Positions 932 to 28,256 of a stretch of DNA of 35,909 nt are shown here, piece by piece. Position numbers and translations under genes: made by a program. Under the pieces are notes generated by a model. It saw nothing but the letters and a program-made list of their open reading frames with translations. It made no database searches and was not told the DNA's origin. The first letter of the stretch is position 1. Each line of letters begins with the position of its first letter. Origin of the DNA: Arenicellales bacterium (lineage in GTDB: Bacteria > Pseudomonadota > Gammaproteobacteria > Arenicellales > UBA868); NCBI GenBank assembly GCA_028825345.1, contig JAPKAJ010000001.1, positions 1 through 35,909 on the forward strand, given 5' to 3'.

Positions 932-962
932 AAATTTCTCCCATGGTCACGTCGCTTCCAAT

Positions 963-987
963 ACTGAATAGTGAATCAATATTCAAA
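963..987. promoter_or_regulatory. Palindromic operator copy 1 with overlapping leftward sigma70-like promoter
   Basis: ACTGAATAGTGA-A-TCAATATTCAAA, 3 mismatches to the consensus palindrome. Minus strand: TTGTGA (996-991), 17 bp, CACTAT (973-968). Confidence 0.75.
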
Positions 988-1091
988 TTATCACAAACGA
1001 TTTTTCAGGGGCTTAGCTTATGGTAGCAAGATGGTTGAATCGAAATTGTGGGATTCCATTTCGCACGTTCTTTGAGGTGATGTCGTCATGC

Positions 1092-2588
1092 CTAAAGATC
1101 ACCCCATCGCGTGCGATTCTGGACATCAAGTTCTGCACCGACAATATAGCTCGGTAAATCCAGCACCAGCGATTGTCGCTCAGTCTCATTGTACGCTGGC
1201 CATTGCGGCAGGCCACCGCCGTTGGGGTTGCCGCTGCGAGCAAAATTGATCAGCGTCTGTGACCAGGCTTGGGCCAGCGCCTGAATTTCCGGGTCCTCCC
1301 TGTCGTGCATGACCAACCCGAGACCTTCTTTGCTGGCGTAGCTGTTGAACGTGAAACTCATCTCGGCACCGTGCGCCGCGCCTAGCTTGCCGTCCATGGC
1401 GTTGCTGGGCACATCGAATCGGTATAACCAACCACCCACGCCAGCAGTTGTTGCTGCTTCAACATTCTTGATGGCGGCACGCCGGAATGAGTCAGTCAAT
1501 ATGTACCCATAGAGGGTTCTGGGGTCGTCGTTGGGGTATTGCTGTTGCAACGTGGCCAGGTAATCCCTGGGATCTTCATCTTCTATCACCCTGCGCGCCG
1601 CTGCGGTCGCCACAGGTCCGAATACATCATTACCGCGATTCGGGTCATCGGGCATCAGCATCGAGAATGCGCTGCCTTCATCGCGATTGGAGCCCGCGAA
1701 GTAAGGTATCCCCGCAGACTTACTTTGAGCGAAAGCCTCGGGTCGTGTTCGGGTCACCACCGTACCGTCTATGCAGGCGCCCACGCGAGCCCCGAGCGTC
1801 TGTTGTGCCTGAAAAATTTGTGGACCCTGCATCGAAGCCAGCTTAGCTGGCAGATCCTGGGTGGCAACCTTGAGCTGCTTCGCCAGTAGCGGTGCCACGT
1901 CGGCCGGTGGTGTTGTTGGCGAGGTACCGCTGTGTGAAATTGCTTTGTGGTAAAGGCCGTCGGCAGCCGGTGCCGCCAGTAAACAGTTGACTGACGAGCC
2001 TCCGGCGGAACAGCCAAAGATGGTCACGTTTCCTGCATCGCCGCCGTAGTCGCCTATGTTGTCGCGTACCCACTCAAGCGCAAGGATCTGATCGCTAATA
2101 CCGTTGGAGGCAGATCCTTGATACTGATCACCATAGGCAGACATGTCCATGAAGCCGAGCAGACCCACGCGGTAGTTGATCGTCACCACTACCACGTCGC
2201 CTTGCCCGGCCAGCACGTCGCCGTAATGCTCAGAACCCGAACCGGTACTGAACCCGCCGCCATGTATCCAAACCATGACCGGTCGTTTACCCGCTGAGGC
2301 GGGGGTGTATATGTTCAGGAACAGGCAGTCTTCGTCGTAGGTTTCGCTAGCGACATCACGCCGGGAAAGTATGGCGAATAATTCGTTTCCCGTAGGGACC
2401 GGTTGTAACGATCGATTACCGGCGGTGCTGGCATCAAATGTGCCAGTCCAACCGCCTGACGGTTGTGCAGCCTGAAAGCGCAGATTGCCCGCAGTCGCTG
2501 CGCCGAAGCGGATGCCATGGAACATGTGGATGTCTTCGTCGCGGATGCCTTCGATGGCGCCCAGGCGGGTATTGAAACGAGTTTTCAT
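1092..2588 (-). CDS. Type-B carboxylesterase (COesterase/PnbA-like)
   Basis: EDCLFLNIYTP, WIHGGG oxyanion motif, GCSAG nucleophile, NRDEG acid, GAAHGAE His. Start chosen at MKTRFNTRLG by alignment with paralog starts; 2597 or 2648 are possible. Confidence 0.9.
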   Translation of the reverse strand: MKTRFNTRLGAIEGIRDEDIHMFHGIRFGAATAGNLRFQAAQPSGGWTGTFDASTAGNRSLQPVPTGNELFAILSRRDVASETYDEDCLFLNIYTPASAGKRPVMVWIHGGGFSTGSGSEHYGDVLAGQGDVVVVTINYRVGLLGFMDMSAYGDQYQGSASNGISDQILALEWVRDNIGDYGGDAGNVTIFGCSAGGSSVNCLLAAPAADGLYHKAISHSGTSPTTPPADVAPLLAKQLKVATQDLPAKLASMQGPQIFQAQQTLGARVGACIDGTVVTRTRPEAFAQSKSAGIPYFAGSNRDEGSAFSMLMPDDPNRGNDVFGPVATAAARRVIEDEDPRDYLATLQQQYPNDDPRTLYGYILTDSFRRAAIKNVEAATTAGVGGWLYRFDVPSNAMDGKLGAAHGAEMSFTFNSYASKEGLGLVMHDREDPEIQALAQAWSQTLINFARSGNPNGGGLPQWPAYNETERQSLVLDLPSYIVGAELDVQNRTRWGDL

Positions 2589-2787
2589 TGCTGTCATACC
2601 AGTACCAACGTTGCTCTGGGGATAAGAAGAATCGTAGTCGACTCCCATGCTACAGAATCGGAATCAGCTATGTCACCGGAATTTTAACTCACTCTACCTA
2701 AACCCAATTTTTCCTCTTCCCATTGCCTTCAAAAACCGTGTAATGTCGCTTCTTTCTCCACCATCATTCTTGCAAACAGGAGCGCCA

Positions 2788-4155
2788 ATGAAAGCCCTGG
2801 TCGAAGGCCCGATCACCGGCGGAACCAGAGGCCGACCGTTCGCCGCGTCCACGCTCGATTTCGAGAAGCTGGGTTATGAGGAAGAGGAATATTTGCTGTC
2901 TGGCACCGCGGCCGGTTTTCACGACCTTGATGATTCCTTCTCCCGACGCGATGGACTTTGGACGGTTGAACCAGCAGCACAATCTGAATACTGCACACGT
3001 CTACTTGTCTACCGCCCAAAAGATCCAAAGGCATTCAATGGAACCGTTGTACTACTGTGGAACAACGTCACTGCGGGCTACGATCTCTTCGGTGCAGACA
3101 GCCTCGAACTATTTGAAAACGGATCTGCACTCGCCTGCCTGACCATTCAGAAGGCGGGTATCGAAGGACTGCCGCCTCTCAAGCAGGGGCTGGCCCAGTG
3201 GGACCCTGACCGGTACGGCACATTATCAATTGCCTCTGATGACTACTCCTACGACATATTTACACAAGCAGCGCGCACGCTTGGACCAAACCGCGACACC
3301 CCAATCGACCCCGTGGGAGGGTTGCACGTTAAGCACGTCATCGCTCAAGGCGCTTCCCAATCTGCTAGCCGCCTGGCAACTTATATCAATGCAATCCAAC
3401 CTATCGAAAAGGTGTTGGACGGATTCATTCTTTCAATATATTTCGGTCAGGGAGCACCCATAGAGGTCTTTGATGCAGTGGTAAACATCAATACGTCAGG
3501 CGATAAAATTTCTGACAACCTGCTCCTGGGACGCAATGTGATTCGCGATGATCTGGGGATCCCAATATTCATTGTGAACTCTGAATTGGAGGCCATAGCT
3601 TGCTACAACGTAAGACAACCCGACACGAAAACATTCCGATACTGGGAATCTGCCGGTACCAGCCACACGTCCCGTCAAGGGCGTGAAAAACGCCGGCAAC
3701 TGTTTGAGCGAGATCAAATTGTCGGTCGTTTGATTGAACCTTGCGTAAACGAAATTCCGATGGGCCTGCTTTACGAAGCTGTCTTTCATCACATGCAGCA
3801 GTGGGTTGCGCAAGACATTGAGCCACCGATCCAACCGAAAATTAAATTCTCCGGTAATCCGCCAGAAATCGTCCGAGACGATCACGGCATTGCAGTCGGT
3901 GGTATCCGATTGCCCCAGGTGGACGTGCCAGTGGCGACTAACAGTGCTGTACCACTGGCAGCTGATCTGATCGCCTTGCTGGGTGGGTCTTGTTTTGCGT
4001 TCGATGCTGAAAAAATCAAATCACTTTACGGCGACAGGGCGACCTTTATTGCTCAGTTTGAAGCTGCTGCTGAAAATGCGGTGAGAAACGGCGTACTGCG
4101 CCCAAGAGATGTACCCGAACTGGTAGCCGAAGCTGAACTAAACTGGCCCGGATAG
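2788..4155 (+). CDS. Alpha/beta hydrolase domain protein (Abhydrolase_10-like)
   Basis: AGGAG RBS then ATG at 2788. Family-typical GYEEEEY, FNGTVVLLWNNVTAG, GASQSA nucleophile-elbow motif, AGTSH and RDDHGIAVGGIRLP. Confidence 0.8.
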   Translation: MKALVEGPITGGTRGRPFAASTLDFEKLGYEEEEYLLSGTAAGFHDLDDSFSRRDGLWTVEPAAQSEYCTRLLVYRPKDPKAFNGTVVLLWNNVTAGYDLFGADSLELFENGSALACLTIQKAGIEGLPPLKQGLAQWDPDRYGTLSIASDDYSYDIFTQAARTLGPNRDTPIDPVGGLHVKHVIAQGASQSASRLATYINAIQPIEKVLDGFILSIYFGQGAPIEVFDAVVNINTSGDKISDNLLLGRNVIRDDLGIPIFIVNSELEAIACYNVRQPDTKTFRYWESAGTSHTSRQGREKRRQLFERDQIVGRLIEPCVNEIPMGLLYEAVFHHMQQWVAQDIEPPIQPKIKFSGNPPEIVRDDHGIAVGGIRLPQVDVPVATNSAVPLAADLIALLGGSCFAFDAEKIKSLYGDRATFIAQFEAAAENAVRNGVLRPRDVPELVAEAELNWPG

Positions 4156-4201: not shown

Positions 4202-4606
4202 TTACGCGGGGCGAAATACAGGGATGACGCCACCATCGGGAAACTGTTCAAACGTCACCTGCACTGCCATGCCGGCCTTGGCGTCCGCGGGATCGCAGTC
4301 CACCAGGTTGCTCGGCATACGCACGCCCTCCTTCAGGTCGATCCAGGCGAGGATCAGCGGCAGCCGCCCCTCGTGACGGGGATGATAGACGCGGTGCAGG
4401 CGCGCATGACTGTAGACGGAGCCGCGGCCCGACACTGCACGCCAGGCAAGATCCGTGCTGCCGCAATGCTGGCAGCGCTGCTTCACCGGATACATCCATC
4501 CATTGCAGTCAATGCAACACTGCATGCGCAGCTCACCGGCGCGCGCCCCTTCAAAAAATGGTTCGTTATTTTCGTCGGGCTCCGGCAGCCATGTCGCTTC
4601 AGTCAT
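4202..4606 (-). CDS. DUF35-type Zn-ribbon/OB-fold protein (ChsH2 C-terminal-like)
   Basis: CxxC...CxxC Zn ribbon (CIDC, CQHC), GRGSVYS, GMAVQVTF. Lies directly downstream of a thiolase-fold gene, the canonical pairing. Confidence 0.9.
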   Translation of the reverse strand: MTEATWLPEPDENNEPFFEGARAGELRMQCCIDCNGWMYPVKQRCQHCGSTDLAWRAVSGRGSVYSHARLHRVYHPRHEGRLPLILAWIDLKEGVRMPSNLVDCDPADAKAGMAVQVTFEQFPDGGVIPVFRPA

Positions 4607-4617
4607 CGTTCGTCTCC

Positions 4618-5784
4618 TCAGGCCGCTTCCGGCGACAGTACCAGGGTTGAGTGATAGGCCAACACGCCGCCGTTGCCGGACACCATGATAAGGTCGTTAG
4701 GCGCCTGGCGCTCGCCACCCTGACCGCGCCCCTGGATCACGGCTTCCGAAACCGGTGTCATGCCCCACATATAGAACGACGACAGCTCTCCGCCGCCCGT
4801 GTTGGTAGGCAGGCCGCCGCCGGGACCGAGTTGGCCATCGGCGACAAACGATCCGCCCTCGCCTTTTTCGCAGAAGCCATAATCTTCCAGCGTGACGATC
4901 ACCGTATAGGTGTAGCAATCGTAGATCTGGCACTGACTGACGTCGCTAACTTTGGCACCGGCCATGGCCAGCGCGCGCGGAGCTGATTGCGCACCGGCCG
5001 TATGAATGTACGGATCGTGATCCGCCTGACCTGTGTCGTGGTTGTGACTCTGGGAAAACCCGCGGATGTACACCGGCGGCTGCTTGAGGTCCCGGGCACG
5101 TTCCGCTGACGTAACAATAACGGCCACACCACCGTTGGAGACCAGGCAGCAGTCGAGAACATGGAACGGTTCTACCACCCAGGGCGACGCGTTGTAACCA
5201 TCCAGGTCCAGTGGCTCCCTTTTGCTGGCACGCGGATTCATGGCGGCCCACTGACGTTGGGAGATGGCCACGGCAGCGAGTTGCTCCTGAGTGGTACCGA
5301 ACAAGTCCATGTGGCGTTGAGCTGCCATGGCATACCTGGGCAGAGCGCCGATAATGCCGTAAACGGGCTCAAGCGATGCCATAGCATTGGGCGGTCCGGA
5401 TCTTGCGTACGACACCGCGCCGCTACGTTGGTTTTCCTTCAACGGTGAATCCGCGAACACGCAACACACAGTGGTTGCTAGCCCGTTTGCCACAGCCATA
5501 GCGGCATACTGAATCATCTGCCCTGCACTGGAGCCGTAACCCTGCATGTAGGTCAGCAGGTTCAATTGCTTGAGGCCCAGGGTCATATGCAGGGGCACAC
5601 CGACCCCCTCACCTATACCGGCATTAACCAGCAGTCCGTCCAGATCGGATTTCTGCAGCCCCGCATCTTCCAGCGCCAGGAATACGGCCTCGGCAGCCAG
5701 GTCTTCGGCGTCCCGATAGACGCGACCCATCTCGGTGATGCCTAGGCCAGTGATGGCGACCGCGCTGTTCATTGGATGTTTCAT
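4618..5784 (-). CDS. SCP2/Ltp2-type thiolase-fold protein, probably a non-thiolytic (aldolase-like) member
   Basis: VAITGLG, LDCCLVSNGGVA, IYDCYT, NTGGGELSSFYMWG. No Cys at the usual N-terminal nucleophile position (QGYGSSAG) and no GHP motif. Confidence 0.85.
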   Translation of the reverse strand: MKHPMNSAVAITGLGITEMGRVYRDAEDLAAEAVFLALEDAGLQKSDLDGLLVNAGIGEGVGVPLHMTLGLKQLNLLTYMQGYGSSAGQMIQYAAMAVANGLATTVCCVFADSPLKENQRSGAVSYARSGPPNAMASLEPVYGIIGALPRYAMAAQRHMDLFGTTQEQLAAVAISQRQWAAMNPRASKREPLDLDGYNASPWVVEPFHVLDCCLVSNGGVAVIVTSAERARDLKQPPVYIRGFSQSHNHDTGQADHDPYIHTAGAQSAPRALAMAGAKVSDVSQCQIYDCYTYTVIVTLEDYGFCEKGEGGSFVADGQLGPGGGLPTNTGGGELSSFYMWGMTPVSEAVIQGRGQGGERQAPNDLIMVSGNGGVLAYHSTLVLSPEAA

Positions 5785-5823
5785 GATAGCTGACTCCTAA
5801 ATGACGGGACTGGCCCGGCAGCG

Positions 5824-7416
5824 CTAGACAAGTTCACTAGCCACCAGCAACTCGATGCAGTCCTTTTCGATGGGTTTCTCCGAGATGGTTTTGGGAATCT
5901 CAATTAGCGCCTGGAAGATCTCCGGAACATCGTTGCGCTCCAGGTGCTCGCGGCAGTAGTCGAGCAGTTGCCCGCTGTCGTAGCCAGTCGGATCAGCGGG
6001 CACAACAGCCGCCACCAGGGTTTTCTCTCCCGCGACGTTGCTTTCCTTGGCCACCCCATAGACAAACACATCTGCCACCAGGGGCGATCCCATGAGTACA
6101 GTTTCCACCAGTGTGGTGTTGACGAAATCCCCATTGCGTCGCACGCCGCCGCCAACCCGGTGGTGGAAGTAAAACCAGCCATTGTCATCCTTGTGGCCCA
6201 GGTCACCCATATGAAGCCAGCCATTGCGAACCTTATCGGAAGAGGCCTTGGTATTCTTGTAGTACTGGACAATGATCGGGCTGTTGTCCTCTTTGCGGAA
6301 ACAGATTTCACCCTCTACATTAGCTGCGCAGACAGCGCCGTGATCGTCGAGAATTTCAGCGACCCAGCCGCTGATCGGCTTGCCAATACTGCCCACTGGG
6401 CCTGTGCCGGGGGGGTTGCGCATAGCGCCGCCTTCGGTGGCTCCATAGACCTCGGTCAACTTCAGACCGAACCGCTTTTCAAACTTTTCCCACAGATGGG
6501 CAGGCATGCCGGCACTCTGGACGACGCGTATCGGATTGTCGGCGTCGTCTGGCTTTTCCGGCATCGCATAGATTTCGGGGATCATCCCCCCCAACAAGTT
6601 AAACGTGGTGCAACCATAGCGGCGAGTAATGTCCCACAATCGAGTCTTGGTGAACTTGCGGCTGATGACACAGCAAAGCTCCTGTCCAAGGGCGCCAGCC
6701 ATCGTGCCCTGGGCGTTGATATGCGTGAGGGAAAGGCCGGTGTAGTACCTGTCGCTGCTAGTAATAAAACCAGCAGAAAGGGGGCCTAGGGTAATACCCA
6801 TGTACTTGCGGTGTGTGAAATGTACGGCTTTGGGATTGCCAGTCGTACCGGAGGTAAACATCATAAACATAGTATCGTCCGGGTCCTGCTCCGCCAAAGC
6901 CAGCGGCTCCCCCGCCGCTTGGAGGAGATCAGAAAAGAGGATGGCGGGTAATGGTGTCCGCGGCGCGAGGGGAAGGTCTGCCGTGGACACCACCACCAGC
7001 CATTTGAACTCAGGACAGTTCGCCACTACCGACAGCAATGACGGTAGCGCGTAGTCGGCGCATATCGCGCCCTGGCATTCGGTGAATTCGAGCATGTAAC
7101 TGAGTTTGGCGCCCATGGTGCGAGGGTCGATGGGAACTAGCGCAGCGCCAAGGATTCCACTGGCCACCATCGTCTCCACAAACTCCGGATGATTGTTCAT
7201 CATCACCGCCAGCTTGTCCCCCTGGCTGACACCCAGATCATTCAGGCCCCGCGCCAGCGCCTGACCGTGATCGAAGAGCTGCCGGTAGGTTCGGGTCTCG
7301 TCCTCCAGTTGACCATCAGTGCCCACAGTGACAAACGTAAGAATCGCAAGGTCGGGGTTTGTCTGGGCTTTGTCCGTAATCAGCGCGGCCAGGTTGGTAT
7401 GGGCGGGACCGTTCAT
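5824..7416 (-). CDS. Acyl-CoA ligase (ANL superfamily, CaiC-like)
   Basis: FTSGTTGNPK AMP-binding loop, YGATEG, GWLHMGDLG, PKTISEK. ATG at 7416 overlaps the upstream TGA (ATGA), so the ORF-track start at 7602 is too long. Confidence 0.9.
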   Translation of the reverse strand: MNGPAHTNLAALITDKAQTNPDLAILTFVTVGTDGQLEDETRTYRQLFDHGQALARGLNDLGVSQGDKLAVMMNNHPEFVETMVASGILGAALVPIDPRTMGAKLSYMLEFTECQGAICADYALPSLLSVVANCPEFKWLVVVSTADLPLAPRTPLPAILFSDLLQAAGEPLALAEQDPDDTMFMMFTSGTTGNPKAVHFTHRKYMGITLGPLSAGFITSSDRYYTGLSLTHINAQGTMAGALGQELCCVISRKFTKTRLWDITRRYGCTTFNLLGGMIPEIYAMPEKPDDADNPIRVVQSAGMPAHLWEKFEKRFGLKLTEVYGATEGGAMRNPPGTGPVGSIGKPISGWVAEILDDHGAVCAANVEGEICFRKEDNSPIIVQYYKNTKASSDKVRNGWLHMGDLGHKDDNGWFYFHHRVGGGVRRNGDFVNTTLVETVLMGSPLVADVFVYGVAKESNVAGEKTLVAAVVPADPTGYDSGQLLDYCREHLERNDVPEIFQALIEIPKTISEKPIEKDCIELLVASELV

Positions 7417-8189
7417 TGGCGGGTATCTCCCGTTGCTTTGAGCTCGCCCATGCCCCAGGCAATACCTCTGCGCAGCAGTTCGTAATACACGGGCGAATTC
7501 CAGGAACCCCGCACCACGGGAATAATGTCCCTGATCGGTTTCATATCGTGCTTGCCCGCGCAGTGGCCCAAAGACAGATACAGCACCTCGCCCTCTCCCC
7601 AAGGGTGCACATACATCTGCGGGTGGCTGTCGCGATCGGTGCCATAGTCGGACCGTGCATAGCCGCTCGAAGGCTCGTTGTAGGAGGCCTCGAGTAATAC
7701 CAGCTGTTCTCCCAATTTTTCACAGTAATAGGGTTCTTCATCTTCCACTTCGAAGTCTGATATGCCTGCGGTCAGTGGGTGCTCAATATCACTGACCCGA
7801 ACAGTGAATTTTTGGTTGGCAGGATGAGCAATAAATCGGCTACCTAACAACTTCATAAAGTCGGGGGCAAGATCTGGCGTCTCCGCCTTGCGGCCTTCTA
7901 CGATCTCCAGGATGGCATTTGTCGCGTGCAGCGCGAACCATCTACCGCCGGCTTCAAGAAACTCTGCCAACGCAACCTGCTCTTCGGCTGTGGGACGAAG
8001 GTCACACGTATAAGTAATCAGCAGCTGGCACTGCTTAATGGTTTCCGTATCACCGAAATTTCCTGCTACATGCGTGTGAATATCTGCGTTTTCCGCAAGC
8101 ACCTTGAGCAGCTCGAGCCTGGCAAAATTGGTATTGTGATAACGGGCGTTGCAAACCAGATATACATTGTTGGGATGAGTCTGTTGCAT
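7413..8189 (-). CDS. ThuA-like domain protein (class I glutamine amidotransferase-like fold)
   Basis: GGRWFALHATN, HPLTAGISDFEVEDE.PY and GEVLYLSLGH patterns; AAGGAG RBS. Confidence 0.8.
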   Translation of the reverse strand: MQQTHPNNVYLVCNARYHNTNFARLELLKVLAENADIHTHVAGNFGDTETIKQCQLLITYTCDLRPTAEEQVALAEFLEAGGRWFALHATNAILEIVEGRKAETPDLAPDFMKLLGSRFIAHPANQKFTVRVSDIEHPLTAGISDFEVEDEEPYYCEKLGEQLVLLEASYNEPSSGYARSDYGTDRDSHPQMYVHPWGEGEVLYLSLGHCAGKHDMKPIRDIIPVVRGSWNSPVYYELLRRGIAWGMGELKATGDTRQ

Positions 8190-8233
8190 TGGCTAGTTCT
8201 CTCCTTCTTGCAGTCGCGTCATGTCCAGCATTT

Positions 8234-9763
8234 CTACATGCTCCCGATCGCGGGGTCATCTGCCCATAGTTCATTGATCTCGTGATCGGGGTCCAGTAGC
8301 AAAGACGGTTCAGTCGAAAATCTCATGGTTGCGGGTAAGTCCCGGCTATAGACGGGCCATTCTGGCAGCCCCGATGATGACGGCGCGCCTTCTCGTGCAA
8401 AACTCAACCAGGCATCCATGGTTCTGGCGGACAGCACATCCGCTTCTCGTCCTTCAACAAAAAATCCGGCCGAACCATTTTTATCGTACGTTCCCCAGTT
8501 GAAACCAAGTTCTACCGCATGACACGCACCCACGACGCCTTCCATCAGCGGCGACGGCCAATCAAACAGATAGGAATAGGTCACGGCGTGTTCAGACTGC
8601 GCTTCAAGCAATCGCAGCGCAGGAATCCTGAAAACCTGGTCCGTCATAAATGCGGCCAGTACATCCACGGGCAATGAAGCCTTGTGGCGTGACTGCAGCC
8701 ATTCCCGATATTTAGCGATGACTTTATCCGCTGTATCAGGAAAGAAGGCCGCTACCTCTGCCTGCAGCTGTTGCTCATTCATATTGACCCGGGCAGGATC
8801 AATCACGGCAAACAGTCGCCACTCTTCCCTGCACGTACCAGTCATTACGGCAACACCAGCAGCTGATCCTTTCCGCACAAGGTTAATTGGCATCTCAGGT
8901 ATGACTGTTCCGTCAACATTCGGCCGAAATGCGCCCATGCCAGGCAGATTTTTGCCAACGGCAGCTTTGGCAAAATTCACCTGTAACTCACTAAATGCAG
9001 AGACTGGCAGTGCCAGAAGCGCTGAAGGATCAAAGGTACCAAGCAGCTCCAGCGCCAGCTCTGCCACCTGAAGTCCCTTCTCTGGCGAATTGGCGGAATG
9101 GCAGGCACCGCTCTGGGGAATCGCCTTGTGAAAAAGCCCTTTCGCTGCGGGCATCGCCATGAGGCAACCCACGGACATGCCACCTGCACTTTCCCCAAAA
9201 ATAGTGATGTTTGCAGGATCCCCGCCGAAGACGGAAATGTTATCACGGGTCCATTCGAGTGCCGCCACCTGGTCAAGCAGCCCCTCATTTCCTGTGGCCG
9301 GGATCTTGCCCCCTGTAAGCGCTTTCAGGTTCAAAAAACCGAGAGCGCCCATACGATAGTTGATGGTCACTACCACAACATCACCACGATCTGCGAGGTG
9401 CTGGCCGTCATAGATGGGCTGTGATCCCGACCCCATCGTAAACCCACCACCATGAATCCAGAACATTACCGGTCGTTTGCCCGCGGTTGCGGGAGTCCAT
9501 ATATTGAGGAAGAGACAATCTTCAGCCTGCTCGGGCGGTGTGTCGGCTTGTCCCATAAGCCAGTCAAGCATGCTTGAGTCTTGCGGTGCCTCAGCACCAA
9601 ATTTTGATGCATCCCGAACACCATCCCAACCAGGGTGCGGCTGCGGTGCCTGCCATCGCAGGTCTCCTACGGGCGGTGCGGCAAATGGTATGCCACGAAA
9701 TACCTTAAGCTGGTTTTCCTGCGTACCTTTAATTTTTCCAAGTGTGGTCGTTACTACGGTCAT
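8234..9763 (-). CDS. Type-B carboxylesterase (PnbA-like)
   Basis: FRGIPFAAPPVGDLRW, EDCLFLNIWTP, WIHGGG, GESAG, REEW, GACHAVE. ATGA overlap with the upstream amidohydrolase. Confidence 0.93.
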   Translation of the reverse strand: MTVVTTTLGKIKGTQENQLKVFRGIPFAAPPVGDLRWQAPQPHPGWDGVRDASKFGAEAPQDSSMLDWLMGQADTPPEQAEDCLFLNIWTPATAGKRPVMFWIHGGGFTMGSGSQPIYDGQHLADRGDVVVVTINYRMGALGFLNLKALTGGKIPATGNEGLLDQVAALEWTRDNISVFGGDPANITIFGESAGGMSVGCLMAMPAAKGLFHKAIPQSGACHSANSPEKGLQVAELALELLGTFDPSALLALPVSAFSELQVNFAKAAVGKNLPGMGAFRPNVDGTVIPEMPINLVRKGSAAGVAVMTGTCREEWRLFAVIDPARVNMNEQQLQAEVAAFFPDTADKVIAKYREWLQSRHKASLPVDVLAAFMTDQVFRIPALRLLEAQSEHAVTYSYLFDWPSPLMEGVVGACHAVELGFNWGTYDKNGSAGFFVEGREADVLSARTMDAWLSFAREGAPSSSGLPEWPVYSRDLPATMRFSTEPSLLLDPDHEINELWADDPAIGSM

Positions 9764-10950: not shown

Positions 10951-10952
10951 AA

Positions 10953-19669: not shown

Positions 19670-19703
19670 TTATGTCAAACCCAATATTGAATAGTTTTGC
19701 AAT

Positions 19704-20495: not shown

Positions 20496-20520
20496 ACTGA
20501 ATATTGATTCAATATTCAAT
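20496..20520. promoter_or_regulatory. Palindromic operator copy 4, probable bidirectional promoter
   Basis: ACTGAATATTGA-T-TCAATATTCAAT, 1 mismatch. Minus strand: TTGGCA (20529-20524), 17 bp, CAATAT. Plus strand: TTGCAG (20487-20492, inside the repeat), 17 bp, CAATAT. Confidence 0.85.
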
Positions 20521-20796
20521 TTATGCCAAAAATTATAATCCCGTACGTAAAGTGGCTATCTCGTCCTTGCTGCATAGGCTCGTTCCCGACCATTTGGTTG
20601 AGAACGTTAATCACCTCAGAGACGAGTTCGTGATCACAATTGTTATGAAAACGCCCGGAAATGGATTGACACTGGCTTCAACCGGTTTCGTGACACAAAA
20701 CCCCAAAAACGTTAAACCTGACATTTGATTTCGACGGGATAAAGAAAACGACGGATTCCGGTGTGTACCAGAGACCTAAACTAAACAGGAGACATT

Positions 20797-22044: not shown

Positions 22045-22977
22045 TTACAAAAGGGTTTGCAGCTTGGCCGCTACCCCGGCCACGGCGTCTATCCAATTCT
22101 GATCGCGGTCGCCAACAGTAAATTTTGACAACTCCTGACGTTCGCCGATAAGTAGCACGTGGGACAATCCCTCTCGACCCGCCACCACTTCAGGTTGGGC
22201 CCCGGCTTCATTCAACCAGAAATCTCCGTAAGTCTTTGTCACACCATCAACCGTACAAGCACCCTCCACCACGACATGGAGCGTTTCGGTGCCGAGGTTA
22301 CCGGCTGGCACAACTCTGGCGCTAGGATCACCCTTCAACAACACCAGAACCGGGCCAACCCTGCGATCGCCCATGAGAGAAACGGTCGCTCGAATACCCG
22401 GCGAAACTTCGTCCCAGTCCTTCGCAGTGTCAAAACTGCTATCCAGATGGCCGAGTGATGTTTCGCCCAGGGTCGAGGCAATAGCAGACCCCTCAGGGCT
22501 CGGATGCTCATCCTGAATACCCAACTTATCAGAGAATGGCTTTTGCTGGACTGCGGCTTGCTCCTGAAGTTTTTTGTCAACCGGACAGGCCGGCCAGCCG
22601 CGACGGTCGCCAAAAACCAGCACCCCATAGCCTCCCTTCGGGCCCCAGGCCACGTTGTCGCCGGGATAAGAGATGCTGCCGTCCTGGAAGCGAAACTGGC
22701 CATCGACATAGGCATATTTACCCACATTGGTCGTCCCAAGAATGGACATCCGCCAGGTATCCGAGTCGTGTCCATGGGCCGGTCCCCGGGGCATCTCGTC
22801 TTCCATCGGCCCAAAACAACTAAACAATATATAGGGCCCTGCGGTGTCGTCGCCCATCAGTAAGTCCAGCGATTTGCCAACTCCGAAAAATCGCCGCCAA
22901 CCTTCCACGTGACGATAAGACAGGTTTAGCTGACCATTAACAGCCGGGTCGATCTTTCCAACCGGTGTTGAATACAT
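22045..22977 (-). CDS. Hypothetical protein, possibly tandem cupin/beta-barrel fold
   Basis: GGAGG RBS; 310 aa; last gene of the BVMO operon. HGHDSD and HVVVEG...V patterns resemble cupin motifs. No firm family call. Confidence 0.6.
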   Translation of the reverse strand: MYSTPVGKIDPAVNGQLNLSYRHVEGWRRFFGVGKSLDLLMGDDTAGPYILFSCFGPMEDEMPRGPAHGHDSDTWRMSILGTTNVGKYAYVDGQFRFQDGSISYPGDNVAWGPKGGYGVLVFGDRRGWPACPVDKKLQEQAAVQQKPFSDKLGIQDEHPSPEGSAIASTLGETSLGHLDSSFDTAKDWDEVSPGIRATVSLMGDRRVGPVLVLLKGDPSARVVPAGNLGTETLHVVVEGACTVDGVTKTYGDFWLNEAGAQPEVVAGREGLSHVLLIGERQELSKFTVGDRDQNWIDAVAGVAAKLQTLL

Positions 22978-23086
22978 AACGATTCCTCCAATTTTTCATC
23001 CCCGCCAAGTCTTAACGGGTACCTGGTAAATAACAAACACGGGCAGCATCTAGATCTAGACCTAACCCCTTAGTAGTATCGTTTTC

Positions 23087-24412
23087 TCACGACACTAATT
23101 CGTTCCTGATGTGTTTTGCAGCAACAAAAAAGTGAATCGAAGCCCAGCCAATGATCGTGACACTACCGATCATGGCATAACGCAGGCTTTCGCTACCCAG
23201 CTCTGGCGCCAGTGCATCGCTGAGCAGTCCGATAAGTAGTGGTCCTGCACCAACCCCGATGAGATTCGTCGCGAACATGATTCCTGCCATTCCCATACCG
23301 CGAAGGTGTGCGGGCAACACGCTTTGCATACTCGTCAAAACGAGCGCCACGAAGGATGTGGTGATGACAATAGTGACGCCCAGCATCGCGCACGCCATAT
23401 AGATGTTGTCGAGATAAAGGGTCAACATCCAGGTTGGTACGGTCAATGAACTCGCAATACCGGGCCACCACAGCTCCCAGCGCCGATCGCGCCGCACGGC
23501 TAGCGGTCCAAGCGCTGCGCCGAGCATCACGCCTGCTATCGTGCACAATCCAACCACGCCACCGAGCAATGCGCCCACTTCGCTTAAGGACAGGCCGTGG
23601 CTGCGCATGAAAAATGCGCCGAACCAGGCGCTCACACCGGCGCCGCCGAATGATCCGATGCCATAGGCAATGAAGACGTGCAACATCGTTCGCCGACGCA
23701 GTACCTGGCCAATGGCCTGATACCAGGTGATGTCTGTATCGAACTGCTCTGTGGTGTTCTGGAAGCGGCCTCGCAGGGGGTCCCGCAAAGTCGTGACCAG
23801 AATGATTGCGAGCAACACACCGGGCAGACCCATGGCAAAAAAAGCGACTCGCCAGCCATAGTGGTCGGCAATCACCCCGACCAAAGCCAGTCCTAACGTA
23901 CCGCCGGCCGCGCCGCCCAGTTGATACCAACTCATTCCCCGGCTGCGATTCTCCGGCGTGTAATAGTCCCCCATCATCGACACAGACGCCGGGGCACCCC
24001 CGGCTTCGCCTATACCGATGACGATCCTTGTCAGCGCCAACTGAATAAAGTTTTGAGCAAAACCGGCTACCGCAGTCGCAGCACTCCACACCGCCAGGCA
24101 CACCGCTAACAGTTTCACCCTACTGCGAGTATCTGCCAGGCGCGCCAGAGGTATACCGAACAATGCATAGGTCAGACTGAATGCAAACCCGGTGAGCAGT
24201 CCAAGCTGCGTATCGGTCAAGCCCAGATCTGCCTTGATTGGCTCAATCAGAATCGACATAGCCGCCCTGTCCAGCGCATGAAACAGGTTAACAAGGCCGA
24301 GCAGCACCGTCGCATGAATGAGCACCCCGCGGCTGACAGCGGCTCCGCTAGCAGGGTCCGTGCCCTGGGCAGGCGTCGAAGCGCCCCCGTTTACCGCCGG
24401 TGAACTGCTCAT
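23087..24412 (-). CDS. MFS transporter (spinster-like)
   Basis: Paralog of 12570..13865, with long identical stretches (DTQLGLLTGFAFSLTYALFGIPLARLADTRSRVKLL; end RNELVS). ATGA overlap with the upstream VOC gene. Confidence 0.9.
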   Translation of the reverse strand: MSSSPAVNGGASTPAQGTDPASGAAVSRGVLIHATVLLGLVNLFHALDRAAMSILIEPIKADLGLTDTQLGLLTGFAFSLTYALFGIPLARLADTRSRVKLLAVCLAVWSAATAVAGFAQNFIQLALTRIVIGIGEAGGAPASVSMMGDYYTPENRSRGMSWYQLGGAAGGTLGLALVGVIADHYGWRVAFFAMGLPGVLLAIILVTTLRDPLRGRFQNTTEQFDTDITWYQAIGQVLRRRTMLHVFIAYGIGSFGGAGVSAWFGAFFMRSHGLSLSEVGALLGGVVGLCTIAGVMLGAALGPLAVRRDRRWELWWPGIASSLTVPTWMLTLYLDNIYMACAMLGVTIVITTSFVALVLTSMQSVLPAHLRGMGMAGIMFATNLIGVGAGPLLIGLLSDALAPELGSESLRYAMIGSVTIIGWASIHFFVAAKHIRNELVS

Positions 24413-24876
24413 TCGTCAAATTCCAACAGCTCAACATCGAAACCCAATTTTTCGAGTCCCTGCAGGAAGGCATAGCGGCCACCAGGTGCAGCGCCCATCG
24501 CAGGGAAGTTACCGTTCTGCAGCAACGGCAAACCAATGTCTTCCAGACTGCCAATGACAGGCTCCATCCCATTCACGATAAAGGCAAGGTGATGGATGCC
24601 GTTGCCTTTTTGGGCCAGGCAGTCCTGAAAAACGCTTGGCCCTTCAACAGGTTCTATAAACTCCAGCACGATGTTCTTCAATGGAATATAGCCAACCCGG
24701 GCGCGCCCCTCAGTAGGTTTGCCTCGATAGAGGCTCTGGGTCTCCTCATGAGCTCCGGTGACGCTCGAAGGAGGTGTTTCGATGCCGAACAATTCGGCGA
24801 ACATTGTTAAATATTTTTCGACATCGTCTACGACAAAAGCAATTTTTAAAACGTTGTGCGGTAACAAAGAGTTCAA
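24409..24876 (-). CDS. VOC family protein (glyoxalase/methylmalonyl-CoA epimerase-like)
   Basis: GGAG RBS with TTG start; IAFVVDDVE, LEFIEP..GPS, GIHHLAF, VELLE. Confidence 0.85.
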   Translation of the reverse strand: MNSLLPHNVLKIAFVVDDVEKYLTMFAELFGIETPPSSVTGAHEETQSLYRGKPTEGRARVGYIPLKNIVLEFIEPVEGPSVFQDCLAQKGNGIHHLAFIVNGMEPVIGSLEDIGLPLLQNGNFPAMGAAPGGRYAFLQGLEKLGFDVELLEFDE

Positions 24877-24936
24877 GGGTGTCTCCTTTGATCAAATTTC
24901 CCTGGCATTATTCTTCGATCTGGTTATCAAACCATA

Positions 24937-26142
24937 TCAAATGCCGAGATCTTTCAGGCTGTAGTTCTTGAGCCGTTTCCTGGCTGAGTCGTCCCAGCGG
25001 AACTGGTCTTCGAAGCCGACGAACGGCTGGTAGAAGTAGCGGGTTTCAGCGGCGAAGTGTCGGGCGCGGGCATCGATGGCCGTGGCGATCACGCTCGAAC
25101 GCTCGAAGATTCTCGCATCGTCATAGACTTCATTCTCACCGGCGACCAGCGCGCCATGCTGCCCGATCACGGCTGCGCGACGATGAAAGCCGAACGTGAG
25201 CGACACCCGCTGATCTGGTGAAGTGTTGGCAAACGATCCATGCAGTATCTGGCGGTTGGCCACAGTCACGGAACCAGCTTCACAAAAGAGTGGCACCGCA
25301 GTCGGCAGGCGGTCAGAGCCGCCGTTGGCCTCGACCATCTGCTTGATGTCAACCTTGCCGAGCTTGTGCGTACCTGGCACCACCCACAGACAGTTGGCCG
25401 GTGTGCTGCGGTAGAGCTGTACCTGAAAGTTAAACCCGTGGCTACCTTCGTCCCAGTCCGGCGAGTCCCAGTGGGTGACACCGTCCTGGTGCCAGGCCAC
25501 GGACGCCCCAAGACCTGGCTGCTTGATGAAGATGGCATCGTTGTACGGCACGAAGTCCGGACCGTTAATGGCCTCGGCCACTGCAAGCAGACCCGGATGT
25601 CCATACACCCTAAGCCCAGCGTCCATCGCCTCACACATGTTGAACATCAAATAGATGACCTTGTCTGGGGTTTCGCCGTCCGGCACCGGCTCGAGCATCT
25701 TGGAAGGATGCCGGCCACCACCGGCCGCGGTGCCCCCCAACGGATCGCTCAGGGGCGTTACCCACAAATAGGTATCCCGCACGAGATCGTGACCCAACGC
25801 CGGTTGGCCAACCGCATCAACTTTTGCGCCCGGCGCGGCTGGTGCACGGCGCACCATATCGTTGACCCCCGTACGTAGCTCCTCGAGTTCGACCTGGTCG
25901 ATCACGTCTTCGAAGACATAAAAGCCATGGGTCCAATAAGCGGCGAGGATGTTCGGGTGCAGCGCGCCGTCGGCTGCAAATCGCAACGGACCCCGGTTGT
26001 CTAGCGCGAGCGCACGCGCGCACCCTTCTTCCATGTAATCGGCCATGTCAGCTGCATGTTGGGCGGCTGTGGGCCTCTTCCGGTATTCGACCTGATTACC
26101 CTTCCGATCCGAGACGGAATTTTTCAATCGTGTCTCATCCAT
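24937..26142 (-). CDS. PhyH-family 2-oxoglutarate/Fe(II) dioxygenase
   Basis: WHQD HxD motif, LWVVPGTH, distal HGS..N and R (DQRVSL) 2OG-binding residue. Confidence 0.88.
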   Translation of the reverse strand: MDETRLKNSVSDRKGNQVEYRKRPTAAQHAADMADYMEEGCARALALDNRGPLRFAADGALHPNILAAYWTHGFYVFEDVIDQVELEELRTGVNDMVRRAPAAPGAKVDAVGQPALGHDLVRDTYLWVTPLSDPLGGTAAGGGRHPSKMLEPVPDGETPDKVIYLMFNMCEAMDAGLRVYGHPGLLAVAEAINGPDFVPYNDAIFIKQPGLGASVAWHQDGVTHWDSPDWDEGSHGFNFQVQLYRSTPANCLWVVPGTHKLGKVDIKQMVEANGGSDRLPTAVPLFCEAGSVTVANRQILHGSFANTSPDQRVSLTFGFHRRAAVIGQHGALVAGENEVYDDARIFERSSVIATAIDARARHFAAETRYFYQPFVGFEDQFRWDDSARKRLKNYSLKDLGI

Positions 26143-26182
26143 CTTATCGCCCCTTAGTTGTTTTGGTTAACCATCTCTGCGG

Positions 26183-27964
26183 TTACTGCCTGAATTCCAG
26201 CCCTTCGTGGTCGCCTGCGTTTCGCCAGTCTTCAAGCAGTTTGAAAAATGCCAGTGGGCCTTGCGGGTACACAGTAATGGCGCCGCTGGATTTACCCTCG
26301 CCGTTGAAGTAACTGGGCGTGCACTCGCCCTGACCTAGGAAGGGGGGCGCCACGGTACTTTGAATCATCTTGGTCCAAGCCGATTCAGCCTCTTCGGTGA
26401 CCTCGACCTCACGTACGCCTTCTTCGAGGGCACGGCCGATGATGTACGTCAACTGCATCGCGGCCTCATCGACCAGGTGCGTGAAGTTCGAAGTGAGGCC
26501 GCCTTGTTTGGCCCCGACGATAAATGCGTTCGGAAAGCCGCGGGTGTGCGTGCCGTGCAAACTACGCATGTCGTCGCCCCAATGCGCTGACAACTTGCGA
26601 CCGTCCCGACCGATCAATTCGTAACCGATCCGCTGGGTGAACGCAGTGCCCACCTCGAAGCCCGTGGCGTAAATGAGACAATCAACTTCGTACTCGACGC
26701 CATCGACCACGACGGCGTTCTCGGTGATACGCTCGCAACCCTTGCCGTCGGTGTCGACCAGCTTCACGGCCGGTTCGTTGAAGGCCTGCAGGAACTCGTC
26801 GTGGAAGCACGGCCGCTTACAGAACAGCGCATACCAGGGCTTGAGCGCCGCTGCCGTGGCCGGATCCTGGACGTGTTCGTCGACCCGGGTCCGCAGCTCA
26901 TTCATCTTGCCCATATTCATGCGCTCCATCAGCGCACCGAACTCTTCCGGTGACATCTCGGCCCCGGCCTTCATGTGCTCGAGGATTCGGGCGATGAGGT
27001 CGGTCCAGGCATCGTCCACCAGGTCCTCGGTGACATCACCGCCGTGGGTCATCGCAGTGAAGTTCTCGATCCGCCTGGCCTGCCATCCTGGCTCCAGCGA
27101 CGCAGCCCACTCGGAATCGGTCGGTCGGTTGTTGCGCACGTCGATCGTCGAAGCAGTGCGCTGGAATACACAGAGTTCCTTGCACGCCTTGGCCAGGTGA
27201 GGAACAATCTGCACCGAGGTAGCGCCGGTGCCGATGAGACCCACCCGCTTGTCTCGGAGCTTATCCTGTCCTCCGAGCACGTTGCCGCCGGTGTAGTCGT
27301 AATCCCACCGACTGGTGTGGAAAGAGTGACCCTTGAAGTTCTCGATGCCTGGAATCCCCGGTAGCTTCGGCCGGTGTAGCGGACCATTACCGATGACTAT
27401 GAACTGGGCCCGTATCGCATCGCCCCGGTTAGTGCAGATAATCCATCGCGATGCGTCGGCATCCCAGTCGACGGCGGTGATCTCAGTCGAGAGGCAGGCA
27501 TTGTCGTAAAGTCCGAAGTGCTTGGCGATTCGCTGACAGTGCGCCTGGATCTCAGGTGCATGGACGTACTTCTCTGTGGGGACGTAGCCGGTCTCTTCGA
27601 GCAGCGGCAGGTAGACATATGAATCGATATCACACTGTGCCCCCGGGTAGCGGTTCCAGTACCACGTGCCTCCAACGTCGCCAGCTTTGTCGATGAGGCG
27701 CACGTCAGTAATCCCCGCCTGGACCAGGCGGGCGCCGACCGTCAGCCCCGAGAGCCCGGCACCGATCAGCGCCACTGTCACGTCGTCCGCCAGCGGCTCC
27801 CGCGGCGTCACCTCGCTGTAGGGGTCGTCGAGAAAATGAGCGTATTGCCCCTTGAGCTCAACAAACTGACTGATGCCGTCTGTGCGCATGCGCTTCTCGC
27901 GTTCTACGCGGTACTTTGCCCGGATCGATTCGGCGCCGAGGTCGGAATTGTCTGTCTCTGTCAT
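26183..27964 (-). CDS. Type I Baeyer-Villiger monooxygenase
   Basis: GAGLSG and GTGATS Rossmann motifs, GGTWYWNRYPGAQCD, BVMO fingerprint FKGHSFHTSRWD, ATGF. Start placed at MTETD (27964, AAGGGA RBS), not 28063. Confidence 0.93.
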   Translation of the reverse strand: MTETDNSDLGAESIRAKYRVEREKRMRTDGISQFVELKGQYAHFLDDPYSEVTPREPLADDVTVALIGAGLSGLTVGARLVQAGITDVRLIDKAGDVGGTWYWNRYPGAQCDIDSYVYLPLLEETGYVPTEKYVHAPEIQAHCQRIAKHFGLYDNACLSTEITAVDWDADASRWIICTNRGDAIRAQFIVIGNGPLHRPKLPGIPGIENFKGHSFHTSRWDYDYTGGNVLGGQDKLRDKRVGLIGTGATSVQIVPHLAKACKELCVFQRTASTIDVRNNRPTDSEWAASLEPGWQARRIENFTAMTHGGDVTEDLVDDAWTDLIARILEHMKAGAEMSPEEFGALMERMNMGKMNELRTRVDEHVQDPATAAALKPWYALFCKRPCFHDEFLQAFNEPAVKLVDTDGKGCERITENAVVVDGVEYEVDCLIYATGFEVGTAFTQRIGYELIGRDGRKLSAHWGDDMRSLHGTHTRGFPNAFIVGAKQGGLTSNFTHLVDEAAMQLTYIIGRALEEGVREVEVTEEAESAWTKMIQSTVAPPFLGQGECTPSYFNGEGKSSGAITVYPQGPLAFFKLLEDWRNAGDHEGLEFRQ

Positions 27965-28025
27965 AGGGGGTCCCTTGCTGGGTGGATTATAGAAGATTCG
28001 CCGTTCGCTATGCCGCCCGCTTGTG

Positions 28026-28091
28026 AAGCGCACCAGACCAGGGTCCGCAGGGTTCCGGCGCATGTAGCGTCATTCACCACTGGGGGGTCAT
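28026..28091 (-). pseudogene. Carboxylesterase N-terminal remnant in the BVMO leader
   Basis: GAGGAAG RBS, then ATG-AC joined to CCCCCAGTGG-TGAATGACGCTA-CATGCGCCGGAACCCTGCGGACCCTGGTCTGGTGCGCTT (PPVGE..HAPEPCGPWSGAL). About 48/63 positions identical by hand to 11160..11222 (PPVGERRFQAPELHGPWSGTL). Confidence 0.78.
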
Positions 28092-28185
28092 GTCTGCTTC
28101 CTCTCTTTTTATTCCTTGTATTTACCTGGCCAATCCCAAAAAAAGGTGTGCACTGGATGAACCAGGTATTTGTTCGTTGTATCAA

Positions 28186-28210
28186 ACTGAATTTTGATTC
28201 AATATTCAGT
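28186..28210. promoter_or_regulatory. Palindromic operator copy 5, bidirectional promoter
   Basis: ACTGAATTTTGA-T-TCAATATTCAGT, 1 mismatch. Plus strand: TTGTAT (28177-28182), 17 bp, CAATAT. Minus strand: TTGATA (28219-28214), 17 bp, CAAAAT. Lies between the divergent BVMO and ABC operons. Confidence 0.88.
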
Positions 28211-28256
28211 TTATATCAACGTAAATCGTGTTGTAAATATGTAAATGGAGGTTGAG

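What the first reader, a model, noticed from the sequence alone, without database searches (positions are those of the whole stretch)
954..28219. Five copies of a 25-bp palindromic operator define a regulon spanning the region
Seen: ACTGAATATTGA-W-TCAATATTCAGT at 963, 10953, 19645, 20496 and 28186, with 3, 1, 1, 1 and 1 mismatches. All are intergenic and upstream of gene starts. The site is built from two near-palindromic 10-mers, T(G/C)AATATT(G/C)A, 11 bp apart, and a third box lies at 19681. Established: long palindromes overlapping promoters are typical of repressors such as the TetR family. Inference: one repressor, not encoded in the window, co-regulates the hydrolase/CoA operon, esterase-MFS operon, TonB receptor, ADH, BVMO operon and ABC transporter. 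I do not recognise the motif as a described operator.
Basis: partly seen in the sequence, partly recalled or inferred. Interest (0 to 1): 0.85.

Follow-up and report, generated by a model that had tools for sequence, protein, structure and literature searches.

The report
TetR operator of marine catabolic island
Five copies of a 25-base palindrome sit inside predicted promoters of this catabolic gene cluster and are likely the binding site of a TetR-family repressor encoded about 1 kb beyond the window's true left end, a new example of a familiar kind of local gene switch whose trigger chemical is unknown.

Summary
The five sites are real (3,1,1,1,1 mismatches; none in 100 shuffles). The 2.68-Mb genome holds one more site within 6 mismatches, on contig C163, ending 1 bp before the ATG of a TetR-family gene. 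C163 continues the window's left end: window 1-279 is a chimeric join, and near-identical contigs run esterase, operator, tetR. All 12 of 12 orthologue loci found by protein search that had upstream DNA carry the site before tetR. In 26 of 27 sites a TTG-led -35 box lies exactly 3 bp outside, so the palindrome fills the promoter spacer and covers the -10 box; tetR is likely leaderless and autorepressed. The genes (BVMO, esterases, amidohydrolases, CoA ligase, thiolase/ChsH2, TonB receptor) suggest ketone-to-lactone breakdown of an unknown, likely bulky, compound. Binding, repression and inducer are untested. The cluster was not found in 27 genus relatives; its host is unsettled.

The parts
963..987 (.). 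Operator 1 (3 mismatches); predicted leftward promoter, -35 TTGTGA at 996-991, -10 CACTAT at 973-968, for the esterase starting near 931
10953..10977 (.). Operator 2; predicted two-way: -35 TTGACA 10944-10949 rightward (esterase-MFS-NIPSNAP-like); -35 TTGTGT 10986-10981 leftward (amidohydrolase ATG 2 bp from the site, likely leaderless)
19645..19669 (.). Operator 3; predicted leftward promoter, -35 TTGACA 19678-19673, for the TonB receptor
19679..19703 (.).
20496..20520 (.). Operator 4; leftward -35 TTGGCA 20529-20524 faces an esterase pseudogene; rightward -35 TTGCAG 20487-20492 faces the tetR remnant and ADH
28186..28210 (.). Operator 5; predicted two-way: -35 TTGATA 28219-28214 leftward (BVMO operon), -35 TTGTAT 28177-28182 rightward (Yej-like ABC transporter)
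1..279 (-). Foreign piece (5' end of a folD-like gene), most likely a chimeric assembly join; the true continuation is contig C163 (esterase 3' half, sixth operator, tetR)
280..931 (-). 5' part of a carboxylesterase (PF00135); the rest is on C163; whole in L027 and L047
1092..2648 (-). Carboxylesterase (PF00135); no operator in front
2647..4155 (+). Abhydrolase_10 protein; no operator in front
4202..10950 (-). Predicted operon from operator 2: Amidohydro_2 (9760-10950), carboxylesterase (8234-9763), ThuA-like (7413-8189), CoA ligase (ORF 5824-7602), thiolase-like (4618-5784), ChsH2-type OB-fold protein (4202-4606)
11073..14571 (+). Predicted operon from operator 2: carboxylesterase, MFS transporter, NIPSNAP-like protein (below Pfam cut-off)
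16117..19601 (-). TonB-dependent receptor (17169-19601) followed by a short-chain dehydrogenase (16117-17055)
19764..20261 (-). Carboxylesterase pseudogene fragment with internal stops
20556..20706 (+). Decayed 3' remnant of a second tetR copy (76% DNA identity to C163 tetR; tblastn E 1e-9), placed as the intact operator-tetR-ADH unit of L031/L049
20797..21843 (+). Zinc alcohol dehydrogenase
22045..28063 (-). Predicted operon from operator 5: Baeyer-Villiger-type monooxygenase (26183-28063; best NCBIfam hit PtlE, below cut-off), PhyH dioxygenase, glyoxalase-like protein, MFS, 310-aa protein without family
28245..33838 (+). YejB/YejE/YejF-like ABC transporter and family-5 binding protein, predicted operon from operator 5

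Best explanation
The palindrome is likely the operator of a TetR-family repressor whose gene lies just beyond the window's true left end, and it would block the predicted sigma-70 promoters in which it sits until an unknown inducer releases it. Shown: six sites, all in one linked region; the sixth ends 1 bp before the tetR ATG; the same placement recurs in orthologues down to 50% identity; a TTG-led hexamer lies 3 bp outside almost every site. Inferred: the hexamer is the -35 box and CA-N-N-AT inside the palindrome is the -10 box at 17-bp spacing. Because the site is symmetric, one operator can hold the -10 boxes of two divergent promoters (sites 10953, 28186, perhaps 20496). tetR would start transcription at its ATG (leaderless) and repress itself. 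Inferred with less weight (about 0.6): two dimers bind two overlapping TGAAT-N4-ATTCA units offset by 7 bp, each Gly55 reading the G of a pyrimidine-G step, as in FadR-type TetR proteins. Inferred weakly (about 0.4): the regulon imports a bulky ester, alcohol or ketone and degrades it by alcohol oxidation, Baeyer-Villiger oxidation, lactone or ester hydrolysis, CoA ligation and thiolase/ChsH2 cleavage, with a pathway ketone, acid or its CoA ester as inducer.
For: Only extra genomic site lies 1 bp before tetR. C163 joins the window: L027 and L013/L047 match C200 to position 280 and C163 after a 27-bp gap at 97.9-99.7%, and contigs of 3 of 4 laid runs from different studies leave position 280 into that same sequence. 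Orthologues found by protein search: 7 of 7 metagenome loci and 5 of 5 genomes with upstream DNA (G700 had none) carry the site; in all 5 of those genomes it ends 1 bp before the ATG. The other 3 TetR genes of this genome and a 29% relative with a different helix show no site at <=6 mismatches. The helix VAVGI(L/I)NYHF is kept in all 16 own and locus-derived orthologue rows of the tree. TTG at offset 9 in 26 of 27 sites, at most 5 at any other offset from 4 to 24. In the single-contig genome G660 all 4 pattern matches fall within 40 kb of tetR, one before a TonB-esterase-BVMO-amidohydrolase-ThuA-CoA ligase-thiolase-ChsH2 run at 79-90% identity, TonB apart (32%). Two-dimer model: G-to-C distance is 11 in both units, as described for FadR of Sulfolobus (PMC6449355 section 9). 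B. halodurans FadR binds two 16-bp repeats with half-site ATGA(A/G)T and a 4-bp spacer, and single TetR dimers read 15-17 bp against 22-32 bp for dimer pairs (PMC5397183). 23 of 39 core changes fall on the two positions outside all four half-sites; 7 of 9 changes before the outer G keep a pyrimidine. Gly55 is invariant in 92 of 92 and aligns with FadR(Sa) Gly48.
Against: No binding or expression data. G403 (2 near-perfect sites with -35 boxes) and G405 (1 strong site) show no orthologue of the TetR; these are MAGs of unknown completeness. Position 6 varies little more than position 5 (5 against 4 of 54 half-sites), and 15 of the 23 changes at 6/7 are in the half that holds the -10 box, so promoter constraint explains part of the pattern. 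8 of the 27 sites were found by motif search and are biased. The -10 box starts with C and matches only 3-4 of 6; the consensus scan found 3 of these promoters among 11 hits, a total no higher than in shuffles. The FadR tyrosine (Bh Tyr45, Sa Tyr51) is Asn or His here, and the FadR(Sa) dimer-contact Asn37 is Ala. Several genes of the cluster have no site in front.
Confidence: 0.88

Rival explanations
1. Same repressor, but one dimer binds the two near-palindromic 10-mers 11 bp apart, as the first reader parsed the site.
For: The 10-mer centres are one helical turn apart; positions 6/7 still prefer AT (5 and 18 changes in 54 half-sites), which a pure four-half-site model does not require.
Against: The centres of the 10-mers are their most variable positions. 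The only symmetric G-to-C distances are 4 and 18, neither the 11 of FadR-type dimers. The conserved span of 19-23 bp exceeds the 15-17 bp given for single dimers.
Confidence: 0.25
2. The motif is a copied promoter cassette, spread by local gene duplications, with no repressor bound.
For: Sites 963 and C163:1637 share 55 bp at 83.6%. The region has duplicated esterases, MFS genes and a tetR remnant. Some MAGs hold sites without the TetR.
Against: Symmetry is kept on the side with no promoter role, the C at the start of the -10 box departs from consensus in nearly all sites, and the site stays fixed before tetR genes only 50-53% identical whose other upstream DNA has diverged.
Confidence: 0.05
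3. The site is bound by a different regulator, and the neighbouring TetR is only one of its targets.
For: G403 and G405 have sites but no detected orthologue; similar palindromes lie before unrelated TetR genes in L010 and L018.
Against: No other regulator among the window's 31 scanned ORFs. In G612, G683, G715 the only site above 13 bits in 40-80 kb is the one before tetR. Helix and site are conserved together.
Confidence: 0.05
4. The palindrome is a REP, MITE end or recombination site.
For: Gene blocks are shuffled among related loci and sites often lie at block edges.
Against: Six copies in 2.68 Mb, all in one region, always before gene starts. The shared flanks are the -35 boxes. No Rfam match; no tRNA in 13 related loci; no transposase or integrase family among the window ORFs scanned.
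Confidence: 0.02

Closest known systems
Bacillus FadR (YsiA; B. halodurans FadR-DNA structure, PMC5397183, passages and section 15 read)
   Same: TetR fold (TM 0.60-0.82). Operator of two overlapping inverted repeats with a TGAAT-like half-site and 4-bp spacer; invariant glycine at the start of the recognition helix; site at its own promoter.
   Different: Offset of the two repeats is 7 bp here, 4 bp there. Tyr45 is Asn/His here. 18-20% identity; NCBIfam FadR model 31 bits against a cut-off of 200. Targets are not a standard beta-oxidation set.
FadR of Sulfolobus acidocaldarius (PMC6449355, sections 8, 9 and passages read)
   Same: Best sequence hit in the PDB (E 3e-8) and top fold match (Z 19.0, rmsd 2.1, 181 aligned; several others within about 1 Z). 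Local repressor of an about 30-kb cluster of esterases and CoA enzymes through a few sites; Gly-guanine contact after a pyrimidine; G and C 11 positions apart.
   Different: About 22% identity. The CoA-binding Arg73 and Arg86 align to Trp80 and Phe92 (read by eye). There most sites lie far from promoters; here they fill the promoter spacer.
Mycobacterial EthR/EthA (search listing only; BVMO nature of EthA and TetR nature of EthR partly recalled)
   Same: A TetR repressor next to a Baeyer-Villiger monooxygenase gene; in G404, G612, G636 and G683 the orthologue sits directly beside BVMO genes. EthR folds score Z 17-18.
   Different: 15% identity; no shared operator shown; here a multi-operon regulon with transport and CoA steps.
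SAR202 alicyclic-DOM oxidation scheme (PMC5395668, passages read)
   Same: Proposed order dehydrogenase, BVMO, lactone, esterase or lactonase, CoA steps matches the gene set here.
   Different: That scheme is a hypothesis, uses type II flavin monooxygenases, and comes with no regulator; here a single NAD(P)H/FAD-type BVMO sits in a compact regulon of Gammaproteobacteria.

Membership tests
TetR-family autoregulated repressor operator | Linked gene with an N-terminal TetR helix-turn-helix and all-helical TetR fold | tested here: met
   PF00440 46.4 bits over cut-off 24; model pLDDT 85.8, TetR structures fill the fold lists
TetR-family autoregulated repressor operator | Palindrome in the regulator's own promoter, conserved in orthologues | tested here: met
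   C163:1637; 12 of 12 protein-found loci with upstream DNA
TetR-family autoregulated repressor operator | Site overlaps the promoter elements of target genes | tested here: met
   TTG-led hexamer at fixed offset in 26 of 27 sites; promoters are predicted, start sites not mapped
TetR-family autoregulated repressor operator | Protein binds the site, represses, and is released by a ligand | not testable with these tools
   needs EMSA, reporter and ligand tests
Dimer-of-dimers TetR operators (QacR/FadR class) | Operator of 22-32 bp made of two overlapping inverted repeats | tested here: met
   25-bp site; two TGAAT-N4-ATTCA units with G-to-C distance 11; class definition from PMC5397183
Dimer-of-dimers TetR operators (QacR/FadR class) | Free positions lie outside the four half-sites | tested here: inconclusive
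   23 of 39 changes at positions 6/7, but position 6 barely exceeds position 5 and the -10 box confounds
Dimer-of-dimers TetR operators (QacR/FadR class) | Two dimers per operator in solution or in a structure | not testable with these tools
   no protein-DNA modelling or assay available
FadR (acyl-CoA-sensing TetR regulators) | Scores above the family cut-off | tested here: not met
   NF053878 31.2 bits, cut-off 200
FadR (acyl-CoA-sensing TetR regulators) | Basic residues that bind the CoA phosphates | tested here: inconclusive
   FadR(Sa) Arg73/Arg86 align to Trp80/Phe92 in a roughly 22% alignment; Bacillus FadR residues not compared
REP/MITE or recombination site | Many dispersed copies independent of gene starts | tested here: not met
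   6 copies, one region, all before genes; 4 matches within 40 kb in single-contig G660

The most novel reading that the evidence does not exclude
The cluster is a self-contained catabolic island for bulky alicyclic dissolved organic matter that moves between marine phyla with its own sensor and a portable promoter-operator unit, read by two TetR dimers at a 7-bp offset. A 98-99.6% identical copy is in a Planctomycetota MAG, and orthologues at 81% and 75% are in a Planctomycetaceae and an Acidobacteria MAG, while 27 genus relatives of this genome lack it. Misbinning explains this at least as well.
Probability: 0.12. Interest if true: 0.7.

Novelty: new member of a known kind. Interest (0 to 1): 0.42.

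Why it matters
It pairs an undescribed TetR subfamily with its operator and regulon in uncultured marine Gammaproteobacteria. The sensor is small, the operator is sharp and the promoter is built in, so tetR plus one promoter in a reporter strain would allow a direct screen for the compound that this BVMO-esterase-CoA pathway responds to. That is one practical handle on which dissolved organic molecules such bacteria use. The 7-bp offset would be a variant of the FadR-type two-dimer operator. The regulatory logic itself is textbook.

Tried and rejected
Motif in print: a full-text search for both 10-mers gave 8 papers, none on a TetR operator by title and abstract start; searches listed no paper on this regulator; RegPrecise and PRODORIC could not be queried. 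Three look-ups in earlier scan findings were empty. Rfam on the window, L027 and L001: 0 matches. The exact-pattern scan of genome contigs gave 20 loci; 9 of them (L002, L003, L005, L006, L009, L011, L012, L021, L007) showed no protein related to the cluster and were set aside as probable chance or other regulators. The loose pattern matched 28 of 151 genomes, 23 of them without the TetR, so single loose matches carry no weight; exact matches were in 3 of 7 genomes with the TetR and 1 of 144 without. TetR not found in 150 other genomes of the Planctomycetota MAG's family, 200 genomes of the own order, or at more than 29% in 399 scored class genomes. Host tests were not decisive: 4-mer models favour this genome over the planctomycete in every island piece, but only narrowly over G402 and G660; the folD piece matches neither this genome's folD (44%) nor genus relatives; the 295-bp tail of the planctomycete contig occurs nowhere else in 5 genomes. 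The record behind L027 could not be searched whole. A recombinase-site reading of the flank (resemblance recalled) was dropped because the flank is the -35 box; it was not tested with a tool. The QacR paper was not held, so offsets in other two-dimer TetR complexes were not surveyed. Supplements of the FadR papers were not read and may give the FadR(Sa) offset.
Full report
Observation. The pattern ACTGAATATTGA-W-TCAATATTCAGT matches the window at 963, 10953, 19645, 20496 and 28186 with 3, 1, 1, 1 and 1 mismatches; 0 of 100 shuffles gave a match. In the whole assembly (463 contigs, 2,682,929 bases) there are 4 sites at 1 mismatch, 2 at 3, none at 4-6 and 2 at 7; three local shuffles gave 2-5 at 7 and none below. 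So the motif is real and confined. The one site outside the window is C163:1637.

The regulator. On C163 the site ends 1 bp before the ATG of a 218-aa ORF with a TetR_N domain. Its AlphaFold model (mean pLDDT 85.8) matches TetR structures, FadR of Sulfolobus first (Z 19.0, with others within about 1 Z). No named NCBIfam TetR family reaches its cut-off. None of 31 window ORFs scanned is a regulator, but 20556-20706 is a decayed 3' piece of a second tetR copy, lying before the ADH gene as an intact operator-tetR-ADH unit does in L031 and L049.

C163 belongs next to the window. Contigs L013/L047 and L027 match the window down to position 280 (97.9-99.7%) and, after a 27-bp gap, C163 (99.3%), giving an intact esterase, the sixth site and tetR. 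In 3 of 4 laid runs from different studies a contig leaves position 280 into that same sequence, and in 2 of 4 the piece 1-278 continues elsewhere; no listed contig bridged 279/280. Window 1-279 encodes the start of a folD-like protein (name recalled; 44% to this genome's PF00763 gene) and is most likely a chimeric join. tetR begins about 1.08 kb past position 280. Behind it follow an ABM-like protein, a glyoxalase-like protein, a CoA-transferase III, an APH-like protein and a second CoA ligase, the latter ones on C380.

Site and protein travel together. A protein search of metagenome contigs gave 7 loci (62-97% identity); all 7 have a site at 2-6 mismatches before tetR. A profile search of 151 genomes of one gammaproteobacterial family (that of G404 and G402; G404 is titled Pseudomonadales) gave 6 further orthologues (51-71%). 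Five have upstream DNA, and in all five the site ends 1 bp before the ATG. These rows are not all independent: L027 is near-identical to this genome, L032 and L033 share a site, G612 and G683 are close. Controls: the three other TetR genes of this genome and a 29% relative show no site at <=6 mismatches. In single-contig G660 all four pattern matches lie within 40 kb of tetR. Against: G403 and G405 carry strong sites but no detected orthologue.

Promoter geometry. Over 27 sites (own 6, 13 beside orthologues found by protein search, 8 found by motif; left out were duplicates in L027, L047, L033 and two in L049, the weak sites in L053 and G660, and unrelated hits) a hexamer starting TTG lies exactly 3 bp outside the 25-mer in 26, and 18 match TTGACA in at least 5 of 6; no other offset from 4 to 24 exceeds 5. 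Seventeen bases after it stands CA-N-N-AT inside the palindrome. I read these as -35 and -10 boxes, so a bound protein would cover the spacer and the -10 box. Sites 10953 and 28186 have such boxes on both sides and lie between divergent operons. For tetR the ATG is 7 bases after the -10 box, where transcription normally starts (established knowledge), so the mRNA is likely leaderless. The -10 match is weak (3-4 of 6), and the consensus scan alone is not above chance (11 hits, 11.0 expected; 3 of the 11 are these promoters).

How the protein likely reads it. The 21-bp core holds four nearly invariant G/C positions (2, 9, 13, 20). They pair up as two G-N10-C units, each an inverted repeat TGAAT-N4-ATTCA, offset by 7 bp. 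B. halodurans FadR binds as two dimers to two 16-bp repeats with half-site ATGA(A/G)T and a 4-bp spacer, offset by 4 bp; single TetR dimers read 15-17 bp and dimer pairs 22-32 bp (PMC5397183, passages and section 15). For FadR of Sulfolobus a G and C 11 positions apart and a preceding pyrimidine decide where a dimer binds (PMC6449355 sections 8, 9). Here Gly55 is invariant in 92 of 92 aligned homologues and aligns with that Gly48; the base before the outer G is T or C in 52 of 54 half-sites; 23 of 39 changes fall on positions 6/7, the only ones outside all four half-sites. A 7-bp offset turns the second dimer by about 240 degrees, off the first dimer's face, whereas 11 bp would put both on one face. 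Caveats: position 6 (5 changes) hardly exceeds position 5 (4); 15 of the 23 changes are in the half holding the -10 box; the FadR tyrosine is Asn or His here. I put the two-dimer reading at about 0.6.

What is regulated. Pfam and NCBIfam give carboxylesterases, two Amidohydro_2 proteins, a CoA ligase, a thiolase-like/ChsH2 pair, ThuA-like, SDR, zinc ADH, a BVMO (best NCBIfam PtlE, below cut-off; best PDB 5MQ6, E 2e-120, recalled as a polycyclic ketone monooxygenase), PhyH, two MFS, a TonB receptor and a Yej-like ABC system. G660 has esterase, BVMO, amidohydrolase, ThuA-like, CoA ligase, thiolase and ChsH2 at 79-90% identity in one run behind an operator and a TonB gene. In the 50% orthologues tetR is flanked by BVMO genes, so TetR plus BVMO looks like the old core. 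The order alcohol, ketone, lactone or ester, acid, CoA ester is the scheme proposed for alicyclic marine DOM (PMC5395668, passages), but no substrate is identified here. An acyl-CoA inducer is not supported by residue comparison: FadR(Sa) Arg73 and Arg86 align to Trp80 and Phe92. Not all genes have a site in front.

Host and mobility. This genome's RpoB is closest to gammaproteobacterial structures (organisms of the entries recalled). The tetR was not found in 200 genomes of its order and window 1-20000 not in 27 genus relatives. A MAG titled Planctomycetota (RpoB 49% identical) holds two contigs 98-99.6% identical to the cluster, and orthologues are annotated in a Planctomycetaceae and an Acidobacteria MAG. 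But none of 150 other genomes of that planctomycete family has the TetR, the two contigs carry almost no other DNA, and composition is not planctomycete-like. In the tree the own protein groups with family-G404/G402 sequences in one starred clade (no clade test run, so no donor is claimed). Misbinning, of the planctomycete contigs and possibly of this window too, is as likely as transfer. The first 3 kb are held at half their words or more by 17 of 24 listed runs, all marine or unspecified metagenomes.

Verdict. I found no description of the motif in the searches run. It is a new member of a well-known kind, with a modest twist in operator geometry and real use as a sensor to find the pathway's substrate. 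Interest 0.42.

Noticed in passing
L010:2499-2523 and L018:405-429: Near-identical palindromes lie at the start of unrelated TetR genes with ordinary recognition helices in a Desulfobacteraceae MAG and a Brocadiia MAG (the latter a double-TetR plus PhaC/hydrolase fusion). The two-unit, 7-bp-offset operator may be used by other TetR proteins, or these are chance hits in AT-rich DNA.
   Followed up: partly
L007:2499 and L008:2499: Two identical variant palindromes in one Pseudomonas sp. MAG, one between SDR genes and upstream of an esterase and a BVMO; no TTG box at the usual offset; regulator not sought.
   Followed up: no
window 10880-10950 (-): The N-terminus of the amidohydrolase carries a 16-19 residue piece 74-81% identical to the esterase C-terminus, and its ATG is the reverse complement of part of the opposite promoter's -35 box.
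   Followed up: partly
window 20437-20495: A hexamer tandem repeat (TTCAGT then TTGCAG units) abuts operator 4 and supplies its rightward -35 candidate.
   Followed up: no
window 35600-35909: Multi-copy sequence with depth spikes in all 4 laid runs; 28 bp recur on C176; the planctomycete-MAG contig diverges at 35615. Possibly a mobile-element end at the island edge; no Rfam match.
   Followed up: partly
P0142, P0144, P0146, P0148 and others: Many of the next relatives of this TetR are 400-460 aa proteins with two matched TetR units in one chain.
   Followed up: no
window 14734-16035 (+): Two ORFs (234 and 160 aa) without Pfam family and without an operator, possibly pieces of one broken gene.
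   Followed up: no
window 22045-22977 (-): 310-aa protein without Pfam or NCBIfam family at the end of the BVMO operon, kept at 68% in L032.
   Followed up: no
L030, L032, L049, L102: The same gene blocks occur in different orders and orientations in related loci, each time with operators at the new block starts.
   Followed up: partly
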